From Dehalococcoidia bacterium (GTDB lineage: Bacteria > Chloroflexota > Dehalococcoidia > UBA2979), in the NCBI GenBank assembly GCA_045562675.1, contig JBJKVL010000001.1:228804-292803 (forward strand): a stretch of 64,000 bases of DNA, in the 5' to 3' direction. The translations under genes were made by a program, and so were the position numbers. A model generated the notes under the pieces. That model had not been told where the DNA came from, did not search any database, and saw only the letters and a list, made by a program, of their open reading frames with translations. Positions 13,271-56,411 of this stretch are shown here, piece by piece (the stretch's first letter is position 1; the number at the start of each line of letters is the position of its first letter).

Positions 13271-14203
13271 TTACATTTTTTGATTGTCTTCTAGCCAACG
13301 CTCACAGTCAATTGCAGCTTGACAGCCCATTCCTGCAGCAGTGATTGCTTGTCTATATCTCGTGTCAACTACATCTCCAGCAGCAAAAACACCTGGCACT
13401 GATGTCATAGTATGCTCATGATGAATTATGTAACCTTCTTTATCAACTTCTATTTGATTATTTAAAAAATCTGTCATGGGTTTATGTCCAATAGCAATAA
13501 ATGCTCCTCCTGCATTTATTACTTCTGTAGAATTATCCCGAGGGTCTTCAATGATTGCACCTGTTAAACCATCTTCATTTGAAATCCATTTTTTTATCTG
13601 GCGAAATGTTTTAACTTCTATTTTTGGATTTGCTAGAACTCTCTCATGCATTATTGTTGATGCCCTAAACACATCTCTTCTATGGAGCAATGTTACTTTA
13701 CTAGCAAATCTAGTTAAAAAAGTTGCCTCTTCCATCGCAGAGTCTCCACCGCCTATTACTAAAACTTCTTCATCTTTAAAAAAAGCACCATCACAAGTTG
13801 CGCATGTAGAGATTCCACGTCCTTTTTGCTCTTCTTCATTATCTGCATCTAGCCAAATTGCTTCCGCGCCAGTGCAAATAATAATTGCTTCTGACTGAAA
13901 TTCTTCACCTCCAACTGTAACTTTAAAGGGTCGCGATGAGAAATCTACCGAATCAACATTTTTGTCAATAATTTCACAACCAAATCTTTCTGCTTGTTCT
14001 CTAAGCTCAATCATCATTTCTGGTCCAGTGATTCCTTTAGGATAACCAGGATAATTTTCAACATCAGTTGTTAGCATCAATTGCCCACCATATGCATAAC
14101 CAGAAAACATCAGAGGCTTTAGAAGAGCTCTTGACGTATATAATCCAGCTGTATATCCTGCAGGGCCACTGCCAATAATAATTACATTTCTAATTTTATC
14201 CAT
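13271..14203 (-). CDS. trxB: thioredoxin-disulfide reductase (Cys-type)
   Basis: 310 aa with GSGPAG and GGGDSA dinucleotide motifs and a redox-active CATCDG. Convergent with trxA, 2 nt apart. Confidence 0.95.
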   Translation of the reverse strand: MDKIRNVIIIGSGPAGYTAGLYTSRALLKPLMFSGYAYGGQLMLTTDVENYPGYPKGITGPEMMIELREQAERFGCEIIDKNVDSVDFSSRPFKVTVGGEEFQSEAIIICTGAEAIWLDADNEEEQKGRGISTCATCDGAFFKDEEVLVIGGGDSAMEEATFLTRFASKVTLLHRRDVFRASTIMHERVLANPKIEVKTFRQIKKWISNEDGLTGAIIEDPRDNSTEVINAGGAFIAIGHKPMTDFLNNQIEVDKEGYIIHHEHTMTSVPGVFAAGDVVDTRYRQAITAAGMGCQAAIDCERWLEDNQKM

Positions 14204-14280
14204 TAAATTTTTTCCTAAGTAAATATTGCTTTATATTCACTATCGATAATATCATAATTGGAGCATTAATGTAAATTTAT

Positions 14281-14377
14281 GAGAATGCATGGTGTCCGGT
14301 GGCACTCTTGGTCTTCAAAACTAATGTAAGTTTACGATGTAAGCTTTGGTAGGTTCGACTCCTGCGCATTCTCGCCA
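14281..14377 (+). tRNA. selC: tRNA-Sec (anticodon UCA), CCA encoded
   Basis: Folded by hand.
- 8-bp acceptor stem: GAGAAUGC/GCAUUCUC, then G73 and CCA.
- 6-bp D-stem: GGUGUC/GGCACU, with 4-nt loop CGGU.
- Anticodon arm: UUGGU-CUUCAAA-ACUAA, giving anticodon UCA.
- 8-bp long variable arm: AAGUUUAC-GAU-GUAAGCUU.
- 5-bp T-stem: GUAGG-UUCGACU-CCUGC.
This is the bacterial 8/5 tRNA-Sec architecture. It is similar to E. coli selC in the D-arm and T-arm (recalled from memory). Confidence 0.9.
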
Positions 14378-14390
14378 TAAAGGGTTGTAG

Positions 14391-15845
14391 ATGTTAAAAT
14401 TAACTAAAATACGCTTATTGATTACTTTAAATATTTTTTTGTTAATTTTTACTTCATTATTGCTAGCCATCATCTTTTTTGATTTCCTAAATACTGAACA
14501 TAACGCATCTTCAACAAATCTCAAAAATAACATTGCTAACAATAACATTTTTTTAAAAGACGATAAAAAGTCTGATTTGCTACTTAAAGAACAAAGCATA
14601 GATTCTCTTTATCCCATTCTTGAAAAAACTAGAGCTGCAGTTGTTAGTATTTCAACTAAAGGCAAAATGTCTATCAATAATAATCCCTTCTTTAATGATC
14701 CATTTTTTGAAAATTTTTTTCGATTTAATTTGCCTCAACAGCAAGAAATACAAAGTATTGGCTCTGGGGTAATTATAAATTCACAAAATGGCTTCATATT
14801 AACTAACTTTCATGTGGTTAAAGATGCAGAAGTAATCAATGTTACTCTTTTTGATGAAAGAAAGAGCGAAGCTATTCTTATTGGATATGATGAAAAAACT
14901 GATTTAGCAATCTTACAAATACAAGAAGAAGCTTTATTTCAGTTTGATATTTCCAAAAAAACTGAAATAAGCTTAGGTGACTATGTTCTTGCTATCGGCA
15001 ATCCATTTGGCTTGGGTCATACTGTTACTTATGGGATAGTTAGTGGTATTAATAGAAGCAATGTGGGAATCATTAAAGGAAATGAAAAGTTAATTCAAAT
15101 AGATGCAAATATTAATCCAGGTAATTCAGGAGGCGCATTGATTAATCTTAAAGGTGAACTTATAGGGATTAATACTGCAATTCTGTCAAAAGGCGGAGCA
15201 AATGTAGGGATAGGATTTGCAATTCCCATTCAAACTGTAAATAAAATTGCAAATCAGTTAATTCAATATGGCAATATTAAACGAGGTCAAATAGGCCTTT
15301 CAGTTAAAACAATTGAAATACTTGACAATGAAACTAATTCAAGAGGCATTATTGTAGAGTCTGTAGTTCCAAGTTCAAGCTCAGAAAAAGCTGGATTAGT
15401 ACAAGGTGATATTATTATTGCAATTGACAGTAATCAAATAAATACAGTTGCTGATTTTTCCTATTTTATTGATCTAGAACGTGTGAGTGAAACAATAGAT
15501 GTTCTGATTTTACGAAATGGCTTAAGAAAAACATATATTGTAGAAGTTGAGCCATTTCCAACTTTTAATGATGAGTCTTCATCTGGAGATACACCTCCTG
15601 CAAACATTAAGTATTTACAAGGAGCAACCTTTATGAAAAAAGATAATGGTATTTTTGTTGTTTCAGTTGAAAAAGGTTCAAATGCATATAATATTGGGTT
15701 AAGAAAAGAAGATTTAATTAAACAAGTAAATCAAAAAAAAGTTAATAATTTAAATGATTTATATGATGCTATGAATTCTCGTAATAGGGGTGTCATGATG
15801 CAATTGATTCGAGGCAACGTATCTGTGTTCATAATCAGAAATTAA
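14391..15845 (+). CDS. htrA: HtrA/DegP family serine protease with two PDZ domains
   Basis: N-terminal TM anchor. Triad contexts TNFHVV, DLAIL and GNSGGAL. Two PDZ-like C-terminal repeats. Starts 13 nt after selC. Confidence 0.9.
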   Translation: MLKLTKIRLLITLNIFLLIFTSLLLAIIFFDFLNTEHNASSTNLKNNIANNNIFLKDDKKSDLLLKEQSIDSLYPILEKTRAAVVSISTKGKMSINNNPFFNDPFFENFFRFNLPQQQEIQSIGSGVIINSQNGFILTNFHVVKDAEVINVTLFDERKSEAILIGYDEKTDLAILQIQEEALFQFDISKKTEISLGDYVLAIGNPFGLGHTVTYGIVSGINRSNVGIIKGNEKLIQIDANINPGNSGGALINLKGELIGINTAILSKGGANVGIGFAIPIQTVNKIANQLIQYGNIKRGQIGLSVKTIEILDNETNSRGIIVESVVPSSSSEKAGLVQGDIIIAIDSNQINTVADFSYFIDLERVSETIDVLILRNGLRKTYIVEVEPFPTFNDESSSGDTPPANIKYLQGATFMKKDNGIFVVSVEKGSNAYNIGLRKEDLIKQVNQKKVNNLNDLYDAMNSRNRGVMMQLIRGNVSVFIIRN

Positions 15846-17243: not shown

Positions 17244-18428
17244 TTGCCTACTAACAAATTATGGACTCTTGACTTCATTTTGACGCTCTTGACATCTTTT
17301 TCTTTTTTTGCAGGCGCATTTTATTTAGTAACTGTTTTGCCAAATTATATTCAGGAATTAGGCGGTAGCCCTTTTCAAGTGGGGCTAGTTGTTGGAGCAT
17401 GGGGTTATCTCCCTCTGGTTTTAAGATTATATGTTGGAAAATTTAGTAATCGATCAAATAAAAAATTAATGATTAGACTAGGTTTAGTTAGCTTAGTAAT
17501 TGTGTATGTTTTTATGGCATATTCTAAAACTATTGCTGCACTTTTATTTTACGTTTTGTGCAAGGTATTGGGTCTGCAGCTATACCAACTGCAAGTGGCA
17601 CTCTTATTGCAAATATAACTCCATTTCCAAGGCGTGGTGAAGGATTAGGCTATTTTGGGATTACTTCAAGTTTGGGGGCAAGCAATTGGACCTGCTATCG
17701 GTGCATTTATATTAAATCAATATAGTTATCAAGCAGTCTTTTTATTATCTGCCTTTACATCACTGTACAGTTTAGCTTTAATTCATTTTGTTAATGAACC
17801 TGAAACTGAAAAAAGTAATATAAATGAACGTGATATACTTATCCCAAAGAAGGCAATTTTACCCTCAATGTTGTTTTTTTCTATCACAATTTGCTTTGCA
17901 GCATGTTGTGCATTTTTACCACTCTTAGCACTAGAAAGAGAGATATCGCAAATCTCCTTATTTTTTATTTCTCATGGTGGGATTTCAATTATTGCTCGAC
18001 CAATTGGAGGCGCTTTAGGAGATCGTATTGGTCGGTTACCTATTGTGATTTTTGGAATGATTACTATGTCTAGTGCAATGTTTATATTAGCTGCTGCGGA
18101 TTCAAATTTTATTATTTTATTTGCAGGAATTTTTTCTGGATTAGGAGTTTCTCTTTGTAATACTGGCCTTTTTGCACTTGCGCTTGATCGAGTTTCTTCT
18201 GATCAACAAGGTAGTGCTACTGCAGTTATACAACTTGCTTGGGATGTAGGGATCATTGTTAGTGGGATTGGGCTTGGTTTTCTTGCTACTAAATTGGGAC
18301 TAGCAAGTTTATTTATTGCTGGCGGGCTATGTCCATTAATTGCATTAGGCGTGACTATTATATTACTTTTGAATGGTGAATTGTCTATAAAAAAGCCTTC
18401 CAATGATATAATCAAACCAGTGAAGTAA
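17244..18428 (+). pseudogene. MFS transporter disrupted by two compensating homopolymer indels (ORF fragments 17244-17618 and 17655-18428)
   Basis: Both fragments share one frame. The conserved MFS loop LRFVQGIGSAAIPTASGTLIANITPFPRRGEGLGYFGITSSLG is encoded in the -1 frame, between a T tract (17542-17550) and a G5 run (17674-17678). Frame 0 hits TAA at 17616-17618. Confidence 0.8.
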
Positions 18429-21088: not shown

Positions 21089-21193
21089 CTCATCATCTAG
21101 AGTGGTGGAGGGAATCGGACCTTAGAAACCACGGCATCCTTAATCAATGAGTTTTGGTGCTACAGCCGACCGAGTATAGTACGGAACGATGAG
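21089..21193 (+). promoter_or_regulatory. SAM-I riboswitch aptamer
   Basis: CUCAUCAUCUAGAGUGGUGGAGGGAAUCGGACCUUAGAAACCACGGCAUCC...UUGGUGCUACAGCCGAC...GAACGAUGAG. The P1 halves CUCAUC/GAUGAG and the conserved AGAG-GGUGGAGGGA, GAAACC-GGCA-CC and GGUGCUA blocks occur in SAM-I order. A GC-rich island in AT-rich DNA, directly 5' of a Met-related operon. Confidence 0.85.
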
Positions 21194-21251
21194 TAGGGTA
21201 ATCCACGAAACATCTTTTGTATTTATTCGTAACATTATTAGATTGGTTATT

Positions 21252-22481
21252 ATGTCTTTTGAGATAGCATTAAAATGTAGAGAATGTGAAAGGAAGTTTG
21301 ACTTACTTCCAATATATTCTTGTGAGTTTTGTTTTGGGCCTCTAGAAGTCGATTATGACTACGAAAAAATTAGAAAAAATATTTCAAAGAAACAAATAGC
21401 CAATGGCCCAGATTCACTTTGGCGCTATTCTCCGTTATTACCATGTGATGAAAATTTTAAAGTTGATATTGGGACTGGCTTTACACCTTTAATTCAATCT
21501 AAAAATCTTGCACAGCAACTTGGATTAAAAAAACTTTGGATTAAAAATGATACAGCTAATCCAACATGGTCATTTAAGGATCGTGTAGTTAGTATGGCTA
21601 TAGCACGTGCACGACAATTTGGTTATAAAGATTTAGCATGTGCATCAACAGGTAATCTAGCTAATTCAGTATCTGCTCATGCTGCTCAAGCTGATATGAG
21701 GGCACTAGTTTTTATGCCTGATGATCTCGAATTAGGCAAAGTTATTGGTAGCTCAGTATATAATCCGATTTTGACTATGATTAATGGAAATTATGATGAT
21801 GTAAATCGATTATGTACTGAATTAGCTGCTTCTAATGATTGGGCTTTTGTAAATATTAATATGCGACCCTATTATGCTGAAGGTTCCAGGACTTTAGCTT
21901 TTGAAGTAGCAGAACAATTAGGATGGAGAAGTCCAGATCATTGTGTTGTCCCAATGGCATCAGGTTCATTGTTTACAAAGATTTGGAAGGGCTTTAAGGA
22001 ACTTAAAAATATTGGCTTAATTGATAATATTGATATAAGAATGAGTGGAGCACAAGCAACCGGTTGCTCTCCTATTTCGACAGCATTTAAATCAGGTAGT
22101 TTAAATTTTATTCCTCAGAAGCCTGACACTATTGCTCGTTCTTTAGCAATTGGTAATCCAGCAGATGGCTATTATGCCTTAAAAGTGATGGAAGAAACTA
22201 ATGGGGCAGCCGAAATGGCTACTGATCAAGAAATTGTTGATGGAATCAAAATGCTTGCTGAAAGTGAAGGAATTTTTGCTGAAACTGCGGGTGGAGTTGC
22301 TGTAGCATGTCTTAAAAGATTAGTAGATAATGGAATTATTAATTCAGATGAAGAGACCGTATTATTTATTACTGGTGCTGGATTAAAAACTATTGAAGCG
22401 ATAGAAAATGAAATGAATCCTGCAATTAAGATATCCCCAAATGCAGAAGAATTTATGGATGAATTTTCTAAATTAGGTTAA
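21252..22481 (+). CDS. threonine-synthase-family PLP enzyme with N-terminal zinc ribbon (MetM/CysM-like sulfhydrylase candidate)
   Basis: CRECERKF..CEFCFG zinc ribbon, PLP-lysine motif WSFKDR, and a fold-type-II PLP body. I place the start at ATG 21252. The ORF-track start (21189) lies inside the 3' strand of riboswitch P1. Confidence 0.8.
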   Translation: MSFEIALKCRECERKFDLLPIYSCEFCFGPLEVDYDYEKIRKNISKKQIANGPDSLWRYSPLLPCDENFKVDIGTGFTPLIQSKNLAQQLGLKKLWIKNDTANPTWSFKDRVVSMAIARARQFGYKDLACASTGNLANSVSAHAAQADMRALVFMPDDLELGKVIGSSVYNPILTMINGNYDDVNRLCTELAASNDWAFVNINMRPYYAEGSRTLAFEVAEQLGWRSPDHCVVPMASGSLFTKIWKGFKELKNIGLIDNIDIRMSGAQATGCSPISTAFKSGSLNFIPQKPDTIARSLAIGNPADGYYALKVMEETNGAAEMATDQEIVDGIKMLAESEGIFAETAGGVAVACLKRLVDNGIINSDEETVLFITGAGLKTIEAIENEMNPAIKISPNAEEFMDEFSKLG

Positions 22482-22505
22482 TATATTTTTTATGGAGTTT
22501 TTTAT

Positions 22506-22748
22506 ATGGCTAGTAAAAAAGTAAGATTTACTTTTACTGAACAAACAGTTAAAGAACCACTTGTTTATCAACTTGGACATGAATTTGAAGTAGTGACAAG
22601 CATAAGAATGGCTGACGTAGACAACCAGATAGGTTGGGTAATTTTAGAATTAGTTGGTGAAGAAGCAGAAATTGAAAAATCTTTATCTTGGATTGCGGAC
22701 AAGGGCGTTCGTATTGATCCGCTTGAAGGCGATGTTATTACTGGATAA
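22506..22748 (+). CDS. stand-alone NIL-domain protein
   Basis: The 80-aa ORF VRFTFTEQTVKEPLVYQLGHEFEVVTSIRMADVDNQIGWVILELVGEEAEIEKSLSWIADKGVRID matches the pattern of the NIL (MetN C-terminal-like) ferredoxin-fold domain. Confidence 0.7.
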   Translation: MASKKVRFTFTEQTVKEPLVYQLGHEFEVVTSIRMADVDNQIGWVILELVGEEAEIEKSLSWIADKGVRIDPLEGDVITG

Positions 22749-22760
22749 AAGGAGTTAATC

Positions 22761-23042
22761 ATGAGTGTTAAAGTCAAAATACCTACACCATTACGCAATT
22801 TAACAAATGAACAAGATTTAATAGAACTTGATGCCTCTAGTGTTCGTGAAGTTATCGATGTGCTTGAGAATGATTTTCCTGGAGTAAAAGAACGCATATG
22901 TGAAGAGGATGGTAGCATTCGACGTTTTGTTAATGTCTATGTTAATGGAGAAGATGTCAGATTTCTATCTGAGCTAGATACTGTTATTGCTGATAATGAT
23001 GAAATATCAATTGTTCCAGCTGTAGCGGGTGGATATATCTAA
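22761..23042 (+). CDS. MoaD/ThiS-fold sulfur carrier protein, CysO-like, Gly-Gly followed by two extra residues
   Basis: 93 aa. KIPTPLR...RFVNVYVNGEDVRF...ISIVPAVAGGYI closely resembles M. tuberculosis CysO (recalled), which ends in AVAGG. Here a YI dipeptide follows the GG. Confidence 0.8.
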   Translation: MSVKVKIPTPLRNLTNEQDLIELDASSVREVIDVLENDFPGVKERICEEDGSIRRFVNVYVNGEDVRFLSELDTVIADNDEISIVPAVAGGYI

Positions 23043-40124: not shown

Positions 40125-40379
40125 CGTTTCTAAGCTGCCAGTGATATTTGTTACGTGAATGGGGAGTACTGGTACATATAGATATAATGAAGCCCAAAAA
40201 AATCCAATAGATATTCTTGTAAGGTGTATAGATGATGTATTAATTATTTTTTCCTATGCACTGTTAATGAATCTGACAAAAATTCTGCAATATGCATACT
40301 TGATGAATTATTATGTTGTAAGACTTGTTGTCTACAGGATGTCCCTGAAGCAATAATTATTTCATTTTTTTCTAATGCA

Positions 40380-43233
40380 TTAATTTTCTTTATAATGCCT
40401 AATTTTTGCTATATCTTTTGAGATTTGATAATGTTCTTTTTCTATACCAAATGATCCTGCCATGCCACAACAGGTTGATTCAAGCTGCTTAGCATCAATG
40501 CCAAGTTTTTCAGTTAACTCTAATGTTATTGAACCTTTACCTAATGCTTTTTGGTGACAATGTGGATGTATTGCAATAGATTTATCATCTATATCTAAAA
40601 TACTTTGTAGAGAGCCAGGCATATTCTTTTCGTGCTGTATTAAAAATTCTTCAAAAAGTAATAAATTTTTGTCATTAATTTTATATTCTTCTTTGATTAA
40701 ACCTTTATAATCATCGAACACTGCTGAAAAACATGATGGTTCAAGAAAAATAACAGGTATATCTTGACTTGTATATTGTGAAATCATTTGTATAACATCT
40801 TTTGCCATTTTTTTTGCTAGTTGTATTTTCCCTTTTGATATCGCTGGGCGCCCGCAGCACAATTCTTGATTTAAAACAATGACCTCATAGCCAAGCTCTT
40901 TCATGGTTATATAGGCAGATTTTCCAATATTTGGCTCAATATAATTTGTAAATGTATCTGCAAATAATACTACTTTCTTATTTTTATTATCGGAATGATG
41001 ATTTTTGTTGAACCATTTTTTAAAACTTTGATTTGCAATTTTAGGTAAATTTGTGTCTTTATGAATCCCTACAAAGATATGCAATAAATATTTTGAAACA
41101 ATATTACTATTTAAAAAAATTTATAAAAATTGGTAGTTTAGAGCCAATTTTTAATAACTTGTTAATATTTGCTAAGAAATTTGTCCTTAGCGAGACTCCA
41201 TTTTCCTCTTGATATTGATGAAGAATTTCTACTTTTAATTTTGCCATGTCTACTTGAGAAGGGCATTCTGTTTTACATGCCTTGCAACCAACACAAAGAT
41301 CTAAGGCATCCATTAATCTTGTATTTAAAAGCCCATTTTGTCCTTCTTGATTCGTGAGTAGTTCTCTTATTAAGTTGGCTCTGCCTCGTGTTGAGTGCTC
41401 TTCATCTAATGTAACCATGTATGATGGGCACATTACCCCATCAAATTTTCTACATGCTCCCTGGCCATTACATTGCTCAACTAAACTATGGAAACCTCCT
41501 TCATCGTCAAAATTAAGTATAGTTTTGGGTTGTTTCATTTGCCTATCTGGAGCAATTTTAAGATTATCTGTGAATCCAGGAGTATCGATAATTTTACCTG
41601 GATTCATGATTTTTTTCGGATCAAAAAGTAATTTAATTTCTCTAAATGCTTCTGTTAATTCCTTCCCAAACATTTTTTCTGTAAAAACACCTCGCAAGAT
41701 ACCATCACCATGTTCTCCTGATAACGAACCTCCGTATTGCAATACTAATGAAGCTATTTGTTGCGCTATACTATGCATTTTTTCTAGTTCATCATTATTT
41801 TTTAAATTGATCATTGGCCTTATATGCAAACAGCCTACACTTGCATGACCATAAAAACCAGCTACTGTTCCATGGTCAGCAATAATTTTCTGAAATTTAT
41901 CGAGAAATTCTGGTAAATATTTTGGATCTACTGCTGTATCTTCAACAAATGCATAAGGCTTTGCATCTCCTTGTACATTCATCAGTAATCCAAGACCGGC
42001 CTGGCGCATTTTCCAAATATTTTCTTGTTTTTCATGATCAATGATTTTGATGACTTGTTGAACATTATTTTTATTGCTTAGCTTTTCAGCAACATTTTCT
42101 AATTTTTCAGTGAGTTCATTTTCGCTATCGCCGAAGAATTCATTGATTAATATTGCATCAGGTTTATGAGTTAAAAAATCAACATAATGTTTTAATCCAG
42201 GATTATCCATGCATCCACTAATTATTTTTTTATCTACAAGTTCAATTGCAGATGGATGGAAGTCTAAAATATCATTTGTCGATTTTGCTGCCTCGATGAT
42301 TGAATCATATGTTGAAACTACTAATCCTTTAAATTTTGGTAATTCAACTAAATTCACTTTTGCTTCAACAACAATACCTAATGTTCCCTCTGACCCAATA
42401 ATTATTTTTGTTAAATCGATGTTGTGTGAATCATTAACTATCACAGATGCAATATTGTTTGTATTCCCTTTATGTTGCTGATGAATCACTGAATCTAAAT
42501 TATATCCAGACACCCTTCTATCAATTGAGGGAAAATTTGAAACAATTTCGTTTTTATACTGATTGACAATTTCAGGAAGTTTTTTATATATACTGCTTTC
42601 TAAATTATTTAAATCAGCTTTTTCAAGTAAAGCTTTTTCGTTCATCTCATAGGTGTGAATTAATTCACCGTCTGATAAAACAACTTTTAATTCTTTGACA
42701 TGATCGCTCGTTTTCCCGTAAATAATTGAATGTGTACCGCATGAATTGTTTCCTATGCCACCTCCCACGGTCGCACGATTCTTTGTAGAGGTATCAATTG
42801 CATATTGTAAGCCATGTTTTTTTAATTCTTTATTAAATTCTTCTACAACTATTCCTGGTTGAATAATTGCCCATTTTTCCACTGGATTAATTTCAATAAT
42901 CTCTCTCATATATCTGCTAAAATCGAGCATAATTCCCGTATTAATTGCTTGCCCTGCAAGGCTTGTGCCTGCACCCCTTGGTACAATTGACACATTATAC
43001 TTGTTAGCAATTTTTATAATATGTTTTACAATTTCTTCATTTTTTGGAAAAATAATACAAATTGGTTCCATGTGATAAATTGATGCATCAGTTGAATACA
43101 TCATTTTTGATTCTTGATCAAATTTAATATCATCTTTATTAATGATTTTACATAAATCATTAATTAAGTCATTATTGATGAATGAAGATGTTAGTTTTTC
43201 TGTAAGTATTTTTTCTCGCATTAAAAAACCCAT
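40380..43233 (-). pseudogene. FAD-linked oxidase / 4Fe-4S / CCG-domain fusion (GlcD-GlcF or YdiJ-like), split by a frameshift at an A7 run (41113-41119)
   Basis: The 708-aa fragment has an FAD-binding PCMH domain (VPRGAGTSLAG) plus Cys clusters (CNGQGACRKF.., CVGCKACKTECP). The 234-aa fragment has CCG motifs (LCCGRP, CCGMAGSFG). Removing one base of the homopolymer fuses ..PIFINF-LNSNIVSKYLLHIFVGIHKD.. into one ORF of about 950 aa. Confidence 0.8.
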
Positions 43234-44958: not shown

Positions 44959-45345
44959 ATGCAAAGATGCGAAGCAAAAATAAATTTTTTTAAAAAAAAG
45001 TGCAATATTACAACAAAAGCAAGTTGCGTTTATTGTGGAGATTTTTTTTGTATTGAACATGGGATAATTGAAGATGATCATATGTATGTTTGTTCCAAAA
45101 AAAAATGTGTACTAAAATATGAAGATTTGCAACAGCATCATATTTGGCTAGAAAATGCTTACTCATTAAATGCACAAAAAAAGTGTGGTGGAAGTAAATG
45201 TAGCGAAAGTTATGATCATCATTGCTCAAGATGTTCAATTGGTTTTTGTATGAATCATATTCATTTTATGAGATCTAATTCGATAACTGAATTAACATTA
45301 GTGTGTAAGCATTGCGAGCAAAGAAAAGGAATTTGGAATAATTGA
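44959..45345 (+). CDS. Cys/His-rich protein with two CxxC-x4-CxxH modules (AN1/HIT-like cross-brace zinc fingers)
   Basis: 128 aa from ATG 44959; the ORF-track start 44896 overlaps tRNA-His. Modules CVYCGDFFCIEH..H...C and CSRCSIGFCMNH.H...CKHC. The TGA stop abuts the next ATG. Confidence 0.6.
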   Translation: MQRCEAKINFFKKKCNITTKASCVYCGDFFCIEHGIIEDDHMYVCSKKKCVLKYEDLQQHHIWLENAYSLNAQKKCGGSKCSESYDHHCSRCSIGFCMNHIHFMRSNSITELTLVCKHCEQRKGIWNN

Positions 45346-46536
45346 ATGTTAAAAGTTTTTGATCCAGTCAATAATATTATACGGCCAATCAGTATTAAGG
45401 ATAATGATATCAGTATGTATGTTTGTGGTGTTACTCCTTATGATGTTGGTCATCTTGGCCACGCATTGACGTATGTTTTTTTTGACACTGTTAAAAGATA
45501 TTTAGAATTTAGTGGTTTTCAAGTAACTCACATACAGAATATCACAGATATTGATGATGGTATGATTTTAAAATCTAAAGAAGTGAATATGACTATTGCT
45601 GGGCTAACTGAAAAAAATCATAAAATATTCTTAGATGAAATGCAAAATTTAAATGTATTACAACCAGACTCTTTTCCTCTTTCGTCTGAATTCATTCCAC
45701 AAATAGTAGAAAATATCAGTCAGTTAATTAATAAAGGTTTTGCTTATGAAAATGCGGGACATGTTTTTTTTGACCATTCTAAATTGTTAAATTTTGGTCA
45801 TTTACTTAGAAAGAATGTTGATGAAATACGCAATTTGGAGAAAACAGATACTATGCCTGATGAACCAGATGAACTTAAGAAAGATAAACTTGATTTTTTA
45901 CTTTGGCAACCAGAAATATTTAAAGAAGCAAGTTTTGATTCTCCATGGTCACTAGGTAGGCCAGGGTGGCATATAGAATGCTCAACAATGGTCAATGAAA
46001 TTCTTGGTGAACAAGTAACAATACATGGTGGTGGCTATGATTTGATTTTTCCCCATCATGAATGCGAGGTTGCACAGTCTGAATCCTTAACTGATTCAAA
46101 ACCGTATTGCCAGAATTGGATGCATGTTAATGCATTAAGTATAAATGGTGAAAAAATGTCTAAGTCATTAGGAAATTTAATTAGAGTTAGTGATTTGTTA
46201 CAAAAGGATATCGATGGCAATACGATTAGAATGTATCTATTAAGTCATCATTATAGAGCTGGCGTAGATTATAACGAAAATGCCTTATATGCTTTTTTAT
46301 CAAAACATGAATTGTTACAGCAAGCTTTAATTGCTCCAGGTGGACCACCCGACAATTTAGCTATTCAACCATTTAGGAATTCATTTATGAATGCAATGGA
46401 TAATGATTTTAACACACCGCAAGCATTGGATATTATTTATGAGATCGCAAGTTTAATTCTTGATGGCAAATTAGACACTAAAACAGCTGTACCCACTTTA
46501 AAAGAATTATGTAATGTACTAGGGATCGTATTATAG
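45346..46536 (+). CDS. MshC-like cysteine ligase / truncated class-I cysteinyl-tRNA-synthetase paralog
   Basis: MYVCGVTPYDVGHLGHA (HIGH), HIQNITDIDD, GRPGWHIECS, KMSKSLGN. Only ~125 aa follow KMSKS (396 aa in total). That is the length of MshC rather than a full CysRS with an anticodon-binding domain. Confidence 0.65.
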   Translation: MLKVFDPVNNIIRPISIKDNDISMYVCGVTPYDVGHLGHALTYVFFDTVKRYLEFSGFQVTHIQNITDIDDGMILKSKEVNMTIAGLTEKNHKIFLDEMQNLNVLQPDSFPLSSEFIPQIVENISQLINKGFAYENAGHVFFDHSKLLNFGHLLRKNVDEIRNLEKTDTMPDEPDELKKDKLDFLLWQPEIFKEASFDSPWSLGRPGWHIECSTMVNEILGEQVTIHGGGYDLIFPHHECEVAQSESLTDSKPYCQNWMHVNALSINGEKMSKSLGNLIRVSDLLQKDIDGNTIRMYLLSHHYRAGVDYNENALYAFLSKHELLQQALIAPGGPPDNLAIQPFRNSFMNAMDNDFNTPQALDIIYEIASLILDGKLDTKTAVPTLKELCNVLGIVL

Positions 46537-55929: not shown

Positions 55930-56059
55930 TACTATAAAACATATCTTATCAATTAGTAATAATTATAACTTGATTTTTTTTTATTGTTTAGTTTAAACTT
56001 AATCATGAAATGGGTGCAGTGAAGTAGTTTATTCAAATTAGCCTAATTTTTAGATGCTG

Positions 56060-56198
56060 CACTTACTAAAAAACGGAGGAACCATTTCGGGGTGAACTCA
56101 ATTTGAGCGGGTGACTGTTCCATCCGAATCCGTCAGCTAACTTCGTAGGCTATTGAACAGACCGAATGCCGGTGGGGTGCCGGGCTTGGAGGTCTGTG
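56060..56198 (+). promoter_or_regulatory. c-di-AMP riboswitch (ydaO-yuaA class) with SD-sequestering hairpin
   Basis: Conserved blocks occur in ydaO order: ACGGAGGAACCA, GGGGUGAAC, CCGAAUCCGUCAGCUAACUUCGUAGGC. The last is near-identical to B. subtilis ydaO CCGAAUCCGUCAGCUAACCUCGUAAGC (recalled). The outer helix CUUAC/GUAGG closes it. A downstream hairpin CAGACC(56158-63)...GGUCUG(56191-96) overlaps the GGAGG SD (56188-92). Confidence 0.85.
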
Positions 56199-56411
56199 AT
56201 GGTTTATACATTACCCCCTAAATTATGTCCTAGATGTAGTGGCTTTATGCTTGCAGAAGATGATACCTATGGTGAATTTTCTACATGTGTACAGTGTGGA
56301 TTTGTTCATGAAAATGAAGTAGCTGATCCTGCTGATATTAAGAAGGAAGAAGAGTTAGCCTTCGGTAAGCTGCGTCGAAGACAACCGTCTCATGGTAAAT
56401 TAAGATTATAA
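56199..56411 (+). CDS. 70-aa C4 zinc-ribbon protein with basic C-terminal tail
   Basis: ATG 56199 lies 6 nt after GGAGG. MVYTLPPKLCPRCSGFML...CVQCGFVHE...KLRRRQPSHGKLRL. The ORF-track start 56166 lies inside the riboswitch platform. Confidence 0.65.
   Translation: MVYTLPPKLCPRCSGFMLAEDDTYGEFSTCVQCGFVHENEVADPADIKKEEELAFGKLRRRQPSHGKLRL

What the first reader, a model, noticed from the sequence alone, without database searches (positions are those of the whole stretch)
14281..14377. Canonical tRNA-Sec (selC) between trxB and htrA in a streamlined, actinobacterium-like genome, with no selenoprotein gene visible in 64 kb
Seen in the sequence:
- A 97-nt gene folds into the bacterial 8/5 tRNA-Sec shape: 8-bp acceptor, 6-bp D-stem with 4-nt loop, UCA anticodon in CUUCAAA, 8-bp extra arm, 5-bp T-stem, G73 and encoded CCA.
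- It sits 77 nt from the trxB start and 13 nt before htrA.

Established knowledge:
- selC implies a SelA/SelB/SelD machinery and at least one UGA-Sec gene.
- Sec use is patchy in Actinobacteria and costly for small genomes.

Inference:
- The genome recodes UGA somewhere.
- I screened the window for same-frame ORF pairs separated by TGA and for short TGA-split ORFs in the larger gaps. I found only the 45343 junction, which is a separate finding.
- The local redox genes (trxA WCGPC, trxB CATC) are Cys forms.
- The selenoproteome of this lineage is therefore elsewhere and may be small or unusual.
Basis: partly seen in the sequence, partly recalled or inferred. Interest (0 to 1): 0.7.

Follow-up and report, generated by a model that had tools for sequence, protein, structure and literature searches.

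The report
Ordinary selenocysteine tRNA, marine Chloroflexota genome
The 97-base gene is a genuine, well-conserved selenocysteine tRNA of the standard bacterial type, but it sits in a small low-GC marine Dehalococcoidia (Chloroflexota) genome rather than an actinobacterium, and I could not reach the enzymes or selenoproteins it should serve.

Summary
ARAGORN and Rfam both call 14281-14377(+) a tRNA-Sec (63.6 bits against a threshold of 47).

The host is not actinobacterium-like. Five window proteins are exact matches to NCBI MAG proteins labelled Dehalococcoidia. The window is 32% GC and matching contigs come from ocean metagenomes, which fits genome-streamlined SAR202-type bacteria.

The gene lies directly upstream of htrA in every relative fetched, down to 49% HtrA identity. 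It is 90-97% identical there, while flanking genes are 68-82% identical at the nucleotide level. Two base pairs show changes on both sides.

UGA is an ordinary stop in this clade. No credible UGA-Sec gene lies in the window or in the 6-10 kb read on either side. The 45343 junction is a plain stop followed by a start.

I could not locate selA, selB or selD of this lineage, so the Sec pathway is inferred, not shown.

Verdict: a new member of a known kind, of modest interest. No paper in the searched library links SAR202 with selenoproteins. A 2026 preprint reports the same trait in Actinomarina.

The parts
14281..14377 (+). selC, the tRNA-Sec gene. It is 97 nt with the 8/5 fold, discriminator G at 14374 and encoded CCA at 14375-14377.
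   Evidence: ARAGORN. Rfam RF01852 at 63.6 bits against a gathering score of 47. The minimum-energy fold equals the cloverleaf. A 97-nt tRNA-SeC is found at the same place in L096-L100, and these score 65-72 bits on RF01852.
14315..14317 (+). Anticodon TCA (UCA) inside the loop CTTCAAA. The loop is invariant in all relatives and identical to that of E. coli selC.
14230..14258 (+). Candidate sigma-70-type promoter for selC and probably htrA: TTTATA, 17 nt, CATAAT, ending 22 nt before the tRNA.
   Evidence: The consensus scan gives 9 of 12 matches. Such sites are not enriched over shuffles in this region (13 found, 11.2 expected). An 'ATATCATA'-type box at the same distance is kept in L096, L097, L098 and L100, although the rest of the spacer diverges. 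This is weak evidence.
14391..15845 (+). htrA (Do/DegQ-family serine protease). It is the downstream neighbour, 13 nt after the tRNA, with no terminator-like site between them. It is probably co-transcribed and released by tRNA processing.
   Evidence: NCBIfam TIGR02037 at 377.8 bits, below that model's cut-off of 416.2, and Pfam Trypsin_2/PDZ. No terminator-like site lies in the spacer. The selC-htrA adjacency is kept in every relative.
13271..14203 (-). trxB (thioredoxin-disulfide reductase, CATC active site). It is the divergent upstream neighbour and is given as context only. In the deepest relative this slot holds a different gene, while selC stays.
   Evidence: TIGR01292 at 372 bits against a cut-off of 343. 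In L100 the slot holds a PF02943 FeThRed_B gene.

Best explanation
This is the working selC gene of a small-genome, low-GC marine Dehalococcoidia bacterium, probably of the genome-streamlined SAR202 type.

Inferred mechanism, from what is established for bacterial tRNA-Sec:
- The transcript, probably made together with htrA from a promoter about 22 nt upstream, is cut out by tRNA-processing enzymes.
- Seryl-tRNA synthetase charges it with serine, using the long extra arm and G73.
- SelA converts Ser to Sec with selenophosphate made by SelD.
- The 13-bp acceptor/T helix keeps it off EF-Tu and hands it to SelB.
- SelB delivers it only to UGA codons followed by a SECIS hairpin.

UGA otherwise remains a stop codon in this clade. 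The genes for SelA, SelB and SelD, and the UGA-Sec genes, lie outside the roughly 80 kb I could read.

Shown here: the gene, its fold, its identity elements, its conservation and the normal stop role of UGA. Inferred: charging, conversion, delivery and the existence of the partner genes.
For: Gene and fold:
- ARAGORN and Rfam call it tRNA-Sec.
- The minimum-energy fold is the 8/5 cloverleaf, with z = -2.7.
- G73, CCA, the loop CUUCAAA, the D loop CGGU and the T loop GGUUCGACUCC are shared with E. coli selC.
- The G73 discriminator, encoded CCA and CUUCAAA loop are also seen in 11 of 13 tRNA-Sec genes that lie next to selA/selB in unrelated metagenome loci.

Conservation:
- A 97-nt tRNA-SeC lies just upstream of htrA in all five relative loci fetched, at 76, 75, 56, 56 and 49% HtrA identity. 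These score 65-72 bits on RF01852.
- The tRNA is 90-97% identical across the clade, while htrA and the M20 peptidase gene are 68-82% identical at the nucleotide level.
- 98.8% of pair cells stay paired, against 37-46% when partners are slid by 1-3 columns.
- A-U becomes G-C at 54:60, and 30:42 appears as G.U, A-U and G-C.
- The anticodon loop is invariant.

UGA as a stop:
- TGA ends 8 of 66 window ORFs. For five of these genes at least one relative has TAA or TAG, at the same position in four of them.

Precedent:
- Sec use is documented in Chloroflexi and Dehalococcoidia (PMC4959059; PMC13326102).
- It is also reported in another streamlined marine lineage, Actinomarina (bioRxiv 10.64898/2026.04.03.716425).
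Against: - No selA, selB or selD was found in the window, in about 6 kb to its left, in 10 kb to its right, or in any relative's locus (tblastn with the E. coli proteins; Pfam lists).
- No credible UGA-Sec ORF was found there.
- The covariation sample is small: 5 distinct sequences and 2 pairs with changes on both sides. 61 of 500 shuffles reach the same score. Covariation alone is therefore not significant; conservation and the slide control carry the argument.
- The promoter call is no better than chance.
Confidence: 0.85

Rival explanations
1. Orphan or relic selC. The clade has lost the Sec machinery, and the tRNA-shaped sequence is kept for another reason, for example as an RNase P/Z processing signal that creates the 5' end of the htrA mRNA.
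For: The tRNA is glued to htrA (11-60 nt) in every relative, whereas the upstream neighbour changes. No sel gene or selenoprotein gene was seen in any DNA I could read.
Against: A processing signal would not need an invariant CUUCAAA anticodon loop, G73 plus CCA, or a preserved 6-bp D stem and extra arm. Streamlined genomes shed unused genes. Only about 80 kb of an estimated 1.1-2 Mb was examined; the genome size is an inference from PMC11994032.
Confidence: 0.08
2. A tRNA-Sec look-alike with another identity. This would be an allo-tRNA or a Cys-accepting 'selC*/tRNA-ReC' type that inserts Cys or Ser at UGA, perhaps served by the short CysRS encoded at 45346-46536.
For: The window's CysRS lacks the C-terminal part of the cysS profile (positions 401-466 of 466). 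From my own recollection of the work of Mukai, Vargas-Rodriguez and Soll, CysRS variants without anticodon recognition accompany such tRNAs.
Against: The discriminator is G, not the U73 that CysRS needs; that requirement is established knowledge and was not tested here. The fold is 8/5, not 8/4 or 9/3. It matches RF01852 over its full length. Short 375-440-aa CysRS forms are the norm among Dehalococcoidia and Chloroflexi homologues, and this one passes the cysS equivalog cut-off at 374 against 340, so it looks like the housekeeping enzyme.
Confidence: 0.03
3. Chance tRNA-like fold or a decaying pseudogene.
For: None beyond the AT-rich context.
Against: E = 1.3e-10. The gene is 100% identical in nine independent assemblies of the species. 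It is intact in four further lineages, with scores of 65-72 bits.
Confidence: 0.01

Closest known systems
Escherichia coli selC (tRNA-Sec UCA; Rfam RF01852)
   Same: Both have the 8-bp acceptor plus 5-bp T stem, a 6-bp D stem with the 4-nt loop CGGU, the anticodon loop CUUCAAA, the T loop GGUUCGACUCC, a long extra arm, G73 and encoded CCA.
   Different: The window gene is 97 nt against 95 nt. Its stems are AT-rich (-30 against -47 kcal/mol). Its anticodon stem is 5 bp with a C.U at the sixth position. Its extra arm is 8 bp with a 3-nt loop. In E. coli selC is not next to htrA or trxB.
selC and the Sec pathway of Actinomarina (bioRxiv 10.64898/2026.04.03.716425)
   Same: Both are abundant, roughly 1-Mb-class, roughly 32% GC surface-ocean bacteria that keep a tRNA-Sec. 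The preprint reports selA, selD, a divergent selB and about 5 predicted selenoproteins per genome.
   Different: The phylum differs: Actinomycetota there, Chloroflexota here. In Actinomarina the position of selC varies and is often inside a hypervariable island. Here selC is fixed upstream of htrA across the clade. The machinery has not been shown for the present lineage.
Selenoprotein-using Dehalococcoidia and Chloroflexi (BSepDB, PMC13326102; Okinawa Trough SAGs, PMC4959059)
   Same: They belong to the same class or phylum. Sec decoding is documented there, with some Dehalococcoidia MAGs carrying 46-49 selenoprotein genes.
   Different: The Okinawa Trough genomes are deep-subsurface single-cell genomes; the BSepDB paper gives no habitat or size for its Dehalococcoidia MAGs. 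The present one is a streamlined euphotic-ocean type. The 2025 paper on such SAR202 genomes does not mention selenium.

Membership tests
Bacterial tRNA-Sec (selC, Rfam RF01852) | Covariance-model score above the family's gathering score, over the full length of the model | tested here: met
   63.6 bits against 47, model positions 1-91 of 91. Relatives score 65-72 bits.
Bacterial tRNA-Sec (selC, Rfam RF01852) | UCA anticodon in a 7-nt loop | tested here: met
   TCA at 14315-14317 within CTTCAAA. It is invariant in relatives.
Bacterial tRNA-Sec (selC, Rfam RF01852) | 13-bp acceptor/T helix in the 8+5 arrangement | tested here: met
   The minimum-energy fold has 8+5 pairs, and 97.5-100% of pair cells are kept in relatives. 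L100 has a G.G at the 8th pair. A non-Watson-Crick 8th pair is also common in tRNA-Sec genes linked to selA/selB.
Bacterial tRNA-Sec (selC, Rfam RF01852) | 6-bp D stem with a 4-nt D loop | tested here: met
   Positions 11-16 pair with 21-26, with loop CGGU. All pair cells are kept, and variation runs through G.U to A-U and U-A to U.G.
Bacterial tRNA-Sec (selC, Rfam RF01852) | Long variable arm and G73 discriminator (seryl-tRNA synthetase identity) | tested here: met
   The extra arm is 8 bp (48-55 with 59-66), with a compensatory A-U to G-C change at 54:60. The discriminator is G at 14374. That these features are the SerRS identity elements is established knowledge, not tested here.
Bacterial tRNA-Sec (selC, Rfam RF01852) | Serylation by SerRS, conversion by SelA, binding by SelB and rejection by EF-Tu | not testable with these tools
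   These are biochemical properties. Only the structural prerequisites were checked.
Sec-decoding trait (selA, selB, selC, selD plus at least one SECIS-bearing UGA gene) | selA, selB and selD in the same genome | tested here: inconclusive
   They are absent from the window, from about 6 kb to its left, from 10 kb to its right, and from relatives' loci. The rest of the genome could not be read. Protein and metagenome searches did not reach this lineage.
Sec-decoding trait (selA, selB, selC, selD plus at least one SECIS-bearing UGA gene) | At least one in-frame UGA gene homologous to a selenoprotein or Cys-homologue family | tested here: inconclusive
   None was found in about 80 kb. Every TGA-joined ORF pair is either adjacent genes, a shadow ORF or a nonsense change (TGA aligned to Arg in L222).
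Cys-accepting tRNA-Sec-like tRNAs (selC*/tRNA-ReC) and allo-tRNAs | U73 discriminator and an 8/4 or 9/3 helix arrangement (features recalled from the literature, not re-read here) | tested here: not met
   The discriminator is G and the arrangement is 8/5.

The most novel reading that the evidence does not exclude
The clade keeps a perfectly conserved tRNA-Sec but has no canonical SelA/SelB/SelD set. The tRNA would then either work with unrecognised or highly divergent partners or serve another role, such as punctuating the htrA transcript or Ser/Cys insertion at rare UGA codons.

A milder version is that genome-streamlined SAR202-type bacteria carry a tiny selenoproteome that has not been described. 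That would make them a second abundant ocean lineage after Actinomarina that needs selenium.
Probability: 0.08. Interest if true: 0.7.

Novelty: new member of a known kind. Interest (0 to 1): 0.25.

Why it matters
If the Sec pathway is complete, which is likely, then small-genome euphotic-ocean Dehalococcoidia of the SAR202 type spend part of a roughly 1-2 Mb genome on selenocysteine.

The 2025 genomic survey of such bacteria does not mention selenium. No paper in the searched library links SAR202 with selenoproteins. With the 2026 Actinomarina preprint, this would make Sec retention a recurring feature of streamlined surface bacterioplankton.

It would also be a practical hint: add selenium to cultivation media for these uncultured lineages. 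As a piece of molecular biology, the tRNA itself is textbook.

Tried and rejected
**Lineage assignment**
- I first assumed the window was Actinomarina and read the preprint. Exact protein look-ups place the window in Dehalococcoidia instead, so the preprint is only an analogy.
None of those loci, nor the Acidimicrobiia loci, has a tRNA-Sec near trxB.

**Search for the Sec machinery**
- The search for homologous proteins with E. coli SelA returned only Enterobacterales among the 120 rows shown.
- I scanned metagenome contigs for the SelA PLP-lysine motif written with AT-rich codons (GGNGATAAAYTNYTNGGNGGNCCNCAA). All 80 loci returned carry selA.
- The low-GC loci are Cetobacterium, Nitrospirae, a locus (L234) whose contents do not look like this clade, and an unnamed marine mesopelagic lineage (L297) that by my reading of its neighbouring genes is Gram-negative. 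None is Dehalococcoidia, and none has a tRNA-Sec like this one.
- tblastn with E. coli SelA, SelB and SelD against the window and the lineage loci fetched up to that point found nothing.
- I read about 6 kb to the left of the window (ribosomal protein genes) and 10 kb to the right (ilvBNC and others). There are no sel genes.

**Search for selenoprotein genes in the window**
- The 45343 junction was tested in relatives and rejected.
- The in-frame TGA in the YdiJ-like gene of L222 aligns to Arg, so it is not a Sec/Cys pair.

**Other checks**
- The 3' half of the tRNA has no exact match in IMG/VR viral contigs, so there is no sign of a phage attachment site.
- The sigma-70 scan gives no more promoter-like sites than shuffled sequence.

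Full report

Yes. ARAGORN reports two tRNAs in the window, one of them tRNA-SeC(tca) at 14281-14377 on the + strand. Rfam's tRNA-Sec model (RF01852) matches 14281-14373 over all 91 model positions. The score is 63.6 bits against a gathering score of 47, with E = 1.3e-10.

- an 8-bp acceptor stem (1-8 with 86-93, all Watson-Crick);
- a two-base linker;
- a 6-bp D stem with the 4-nt loop CGGU;
- a 5-bp anticodon stem, plus a C.U at the sixth position, closing CUUCAAA;
- an 8-bp extra arm with a 3-nt loop;
- a 5-bp T stem with the loop UUCGACU;
- then G73 and an encoded CCA.

The energy is -30.3 kcal/mol, z = -2.7, and none of 200 shuffles folds as well.

**2. Whose genome is it?**

It is not an actinobacterium. 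TrxB, HtrA, RpoA, SecY and the CysRS encoded in the window are residue-for-residue identical to NCBI MAG proteins named 'Dehalococcoidia bacterium'. These are MFL2634471, MFL2634472, MFL2634462, MFL2634454 and MFL2634500, and the longest contig carrying them is 299 kb. Members of the same 90% clusters are named Dehalococcoidaceae, Chloroflexi or Chloroflexota.

The nearest named homologues outside the clade point the same way. For CysRS they are Dehalococcoidia and Chloroflexi at 48-52% identity. For HtrA it is a Chloroflexi protein at 49%.

The window is 32% GC throughout. Identical contigs come from ocean metagenomes, with record names that include TARA, and from Logan assemblies. This fits the 'genome-streamlined SAR202' bacteria described in 2025: Dehalococcoidia of 1.1-2 Mb and 29-40% GC that dominate SAR202 in the euphotic ocean (PMC11994032). 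The SAR202 assignment is an inference; the class-level assignment rests on the depositors' labels.

**3. Is the gene under selection?**

Nine independent assemblies of the same species (99.8-100% identity) carry the tRNA and both spacers without a single change.

I used HtrA to reach more distant relatives. I fetched loci at 76%, 75%, 56%, 56% and 49% HtrA identity.
- Gene order is the same in all of them: rpsI | metK-ahcY-GNAT | plsX-trxA | trxB | selC | htrA-M20 peptidase-MFS and onward.
- ARAGORN finds a 97-nt tRNA-SeC immediately upstream of htrA in each.
- These copies score 65-72 bits on RF01852.
- In the deepest relative (L100), trxB is replaced by a ferredoxin-thioredoxin-reductase-like gene, yet selC remains.

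The tRNA is 90-97% identical across the clade. Over the same comparisons htrA and the M20 peptidase gene are 68-82% identical and trxA is 74-92% identical at the nucleotide level.

On the alignment of the five distinct tRNA sequences:
- 98.8% of pair cells form standard pairs, against 37-46% when the 3' partners are slid by 1-3 columns;
- pair 54:60 changes from A-U to G-C;
- pair 30:42 is seen as G.U, A-U and G-C;
- five other pairs vary only through G.U.

The sample is small. 61 of 500 column shuffles reach the same covariation score, so covariation alone is not significant. The case rests on conservation, on the slide control and on the invariant anticodon loop.

The one 'defect' is a G.G at the eighth acceptor pair in L100. 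A non-Watson-Crick eighth pair is common in tRNA-Sec genes that sit next to selA/selB in unrelated bacteria.

**4. Is UGA reassigned, and is there a selenoprotein gene nearby?**

Of 66 likely genes in the window, 47 end in TAA, 11 in TAG and 8 in TGA. The TGA stops of plsX, the M20 peptidase, gcvH, an SDR and a CNNM protein are replaced by TAA or TAG in at least one relative. This happens at the same position for all but the CNNM gene's more distant relative. UGA is therefore an ordinary stop, and a UCA tRNA must be kept away from general decoding.

I listed every reading frame in which TGA joins two open stretches. All cases are adjacent genes that happen to share a frame, overlaps of the ATGA type, or shadow ORFs on the opposite strand.

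The 45343 junction joins a Cys-rich 128-aa ORF to cysS through TGA-ATG. It fails in relatives for three reasons:
- the Cys-rich ORF is absent in L222 and L223, where the gap holds only tRNA-His;
- it is barely recognisable in L224;
- cysS starts at the same ATG everywhere, preceded by TAA in L222.

An in-frame TGA in the YdiJ-like oxidase of L222 aligns with Arg in the window and so looks like a nonsense change, not a Sec/Cys pair. The 10 kb to the right of the window also holds no candidate.

One caution applies. The window carries single-base indels relative to four other assemblies of the species, so broken frames here are not all biological.

**5. Where is the machinery?**

I could not find it. 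There is no SelA, SelB or SelD in the window, in the flanks or in relatives' loci (tblastn; Pfam lists).

Three searches beyond that failed:
- A protein search with E. coli SelA listed only Enterobacterales.
It yielded 80 genuine selA loci, none from this lineage.

The claim that the genome recodes UGA somewhere therefore remains an inference.

**6. How it most likely works.**

By established knowledge of bacterial Sec decoding:
- the long extra arm and G73 direct serylation;
- the 6-bp D stem and the 13-bp acceptor/T helix direct conversion by SelA and exclusive use by SelB rather than EF-Tu;
- SelB brings the tRNA to UGA codons followed by a SECIS hairpin.

All the structural prerequisites are present and conserved. 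None of the biochemical steps was or could be tested.

The 13-nt gap to htrA and the absence of a terminator-like site in that gap suggest co-transcription and release by tRNA processing. So does a conserved -10-like box about 22 nt upstream. This part is weakly supported.

**7. Comparison with what is known.**

The gene passes every sequence and structure criterion of bacterial tRNA-Sec. It does not fit the Cys-accepting or allo-tRNA variants, because it has G73 and the 8/5 arrangement.

The short CysRS in the window could have hinted at such a system, but it is the usual form in this class.

Sec use is already documented in Chloroflexi and Dehalococcoidia (PMC4959059; PMC13326102). A 2026 preprint reports a complete Sec pathway in all Actinomarina genomes.

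Two points appear not to have been reported, at least in the searched library: Sec in SAR202-type bacteria, and the fixed selC-htrA linkage.

**8. Verdict.**

This is a real, functional-looking, canonical selC. The negative result for the window is confirmed, and the pathway is inferred but not shown. It is a new member of a known kind, with interest about 0.25.

Noticed in passing
window 13271-14203 (-); loci L010-L026, L096-L098, L100: The clade's TrxB is 75-78% identical to TrxB of Poseidoniales (Marine Group II) archaea, 66-68% identical to a Marine Group III one, and at most 57% identical to any bacterial hit. In the deepest relative (L100) the same slot next to selC holds a 99-aa ferredoxin-thioredoxin-reductase-beta-like gene (PF02943) and a 52-aa ORF instead. 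This looks like an in-place replacement involving transfer between bacteria and archaea of the surface ocean.
   Followed up: partly
window 17542 and 17674 (MFS gene 17244-18428): The window lacks a T at 17542 and has an extra G at 17674 relative to four independent assemblies of the same species. This splits an otherwise intact 394-aa MFS transporter gene. It is a likely consensus error or a strain-specific pseudogene, and a warning for frame-based scans of this window.
   Followed up: yes
window 40259-43233 (-): A YdiJ-like FAD/Fe-S D-2-hydroxyglutarate-dehydrogenase-type gene lies in three different frames in the window. It is intact at 992 aa in relative L223. In relative L222 its copy has an in-frame TGA aligned to Arg in the window. 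Both may be degrading, or both assemblies may carry errors.
   Followed up: partly
window 56030-56411 (+): A strong c-di-AMP (ydaO-type) riboswitch (74 bits) sits directly in front of an 81-aa ORF with CxxC motifs that has no NCBIfam match. In my experience this is an unusual gene for this riboswitch to control.
   Followed up: no
window 21090-23042 (+): A SAM riboswitch precedes a PLP-enzyme (PALP) gene, a NIL-domain gene and a ThiS/MoaD-type sulfur-carrier gene. The riboswitch is conserved in the four relative loci scanned. By my reading this resembles a protein-thiocarboxylate route to homocysteine or methionine.
   Followed up: no
window 44959-45345 (+): A Cys-rich 128-aa ORF with no family match is inserted between tRNA-His and cysS in this species only. 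Its TGA stop abuts the cysS ATG in the same frame. This is what produced the '45343 junction'.
   Followed up: yes
window 45346-46536 (+): CysRS is a short 396-aa form that matches the cysS profile only to position 400 of 466. By my knowledge of E. coli CysRS, the missing part is the C-terminal anticodon-contacting region. Forms of 375-440 aa are common among the Dehalococcoidia and Chloroflexi homologues listed.
   Followed up: partly
metagenome loci L232, L257, L261, L266, L273, L275, L278 (tRNA-Sec genes next to selA/selB): Many bona fide tRNA-Sec genes have a non-Watson-Crick eighth acceptor pair. The G.G seen in relative L100 is therefore within normal variation.
   Followed up: partly
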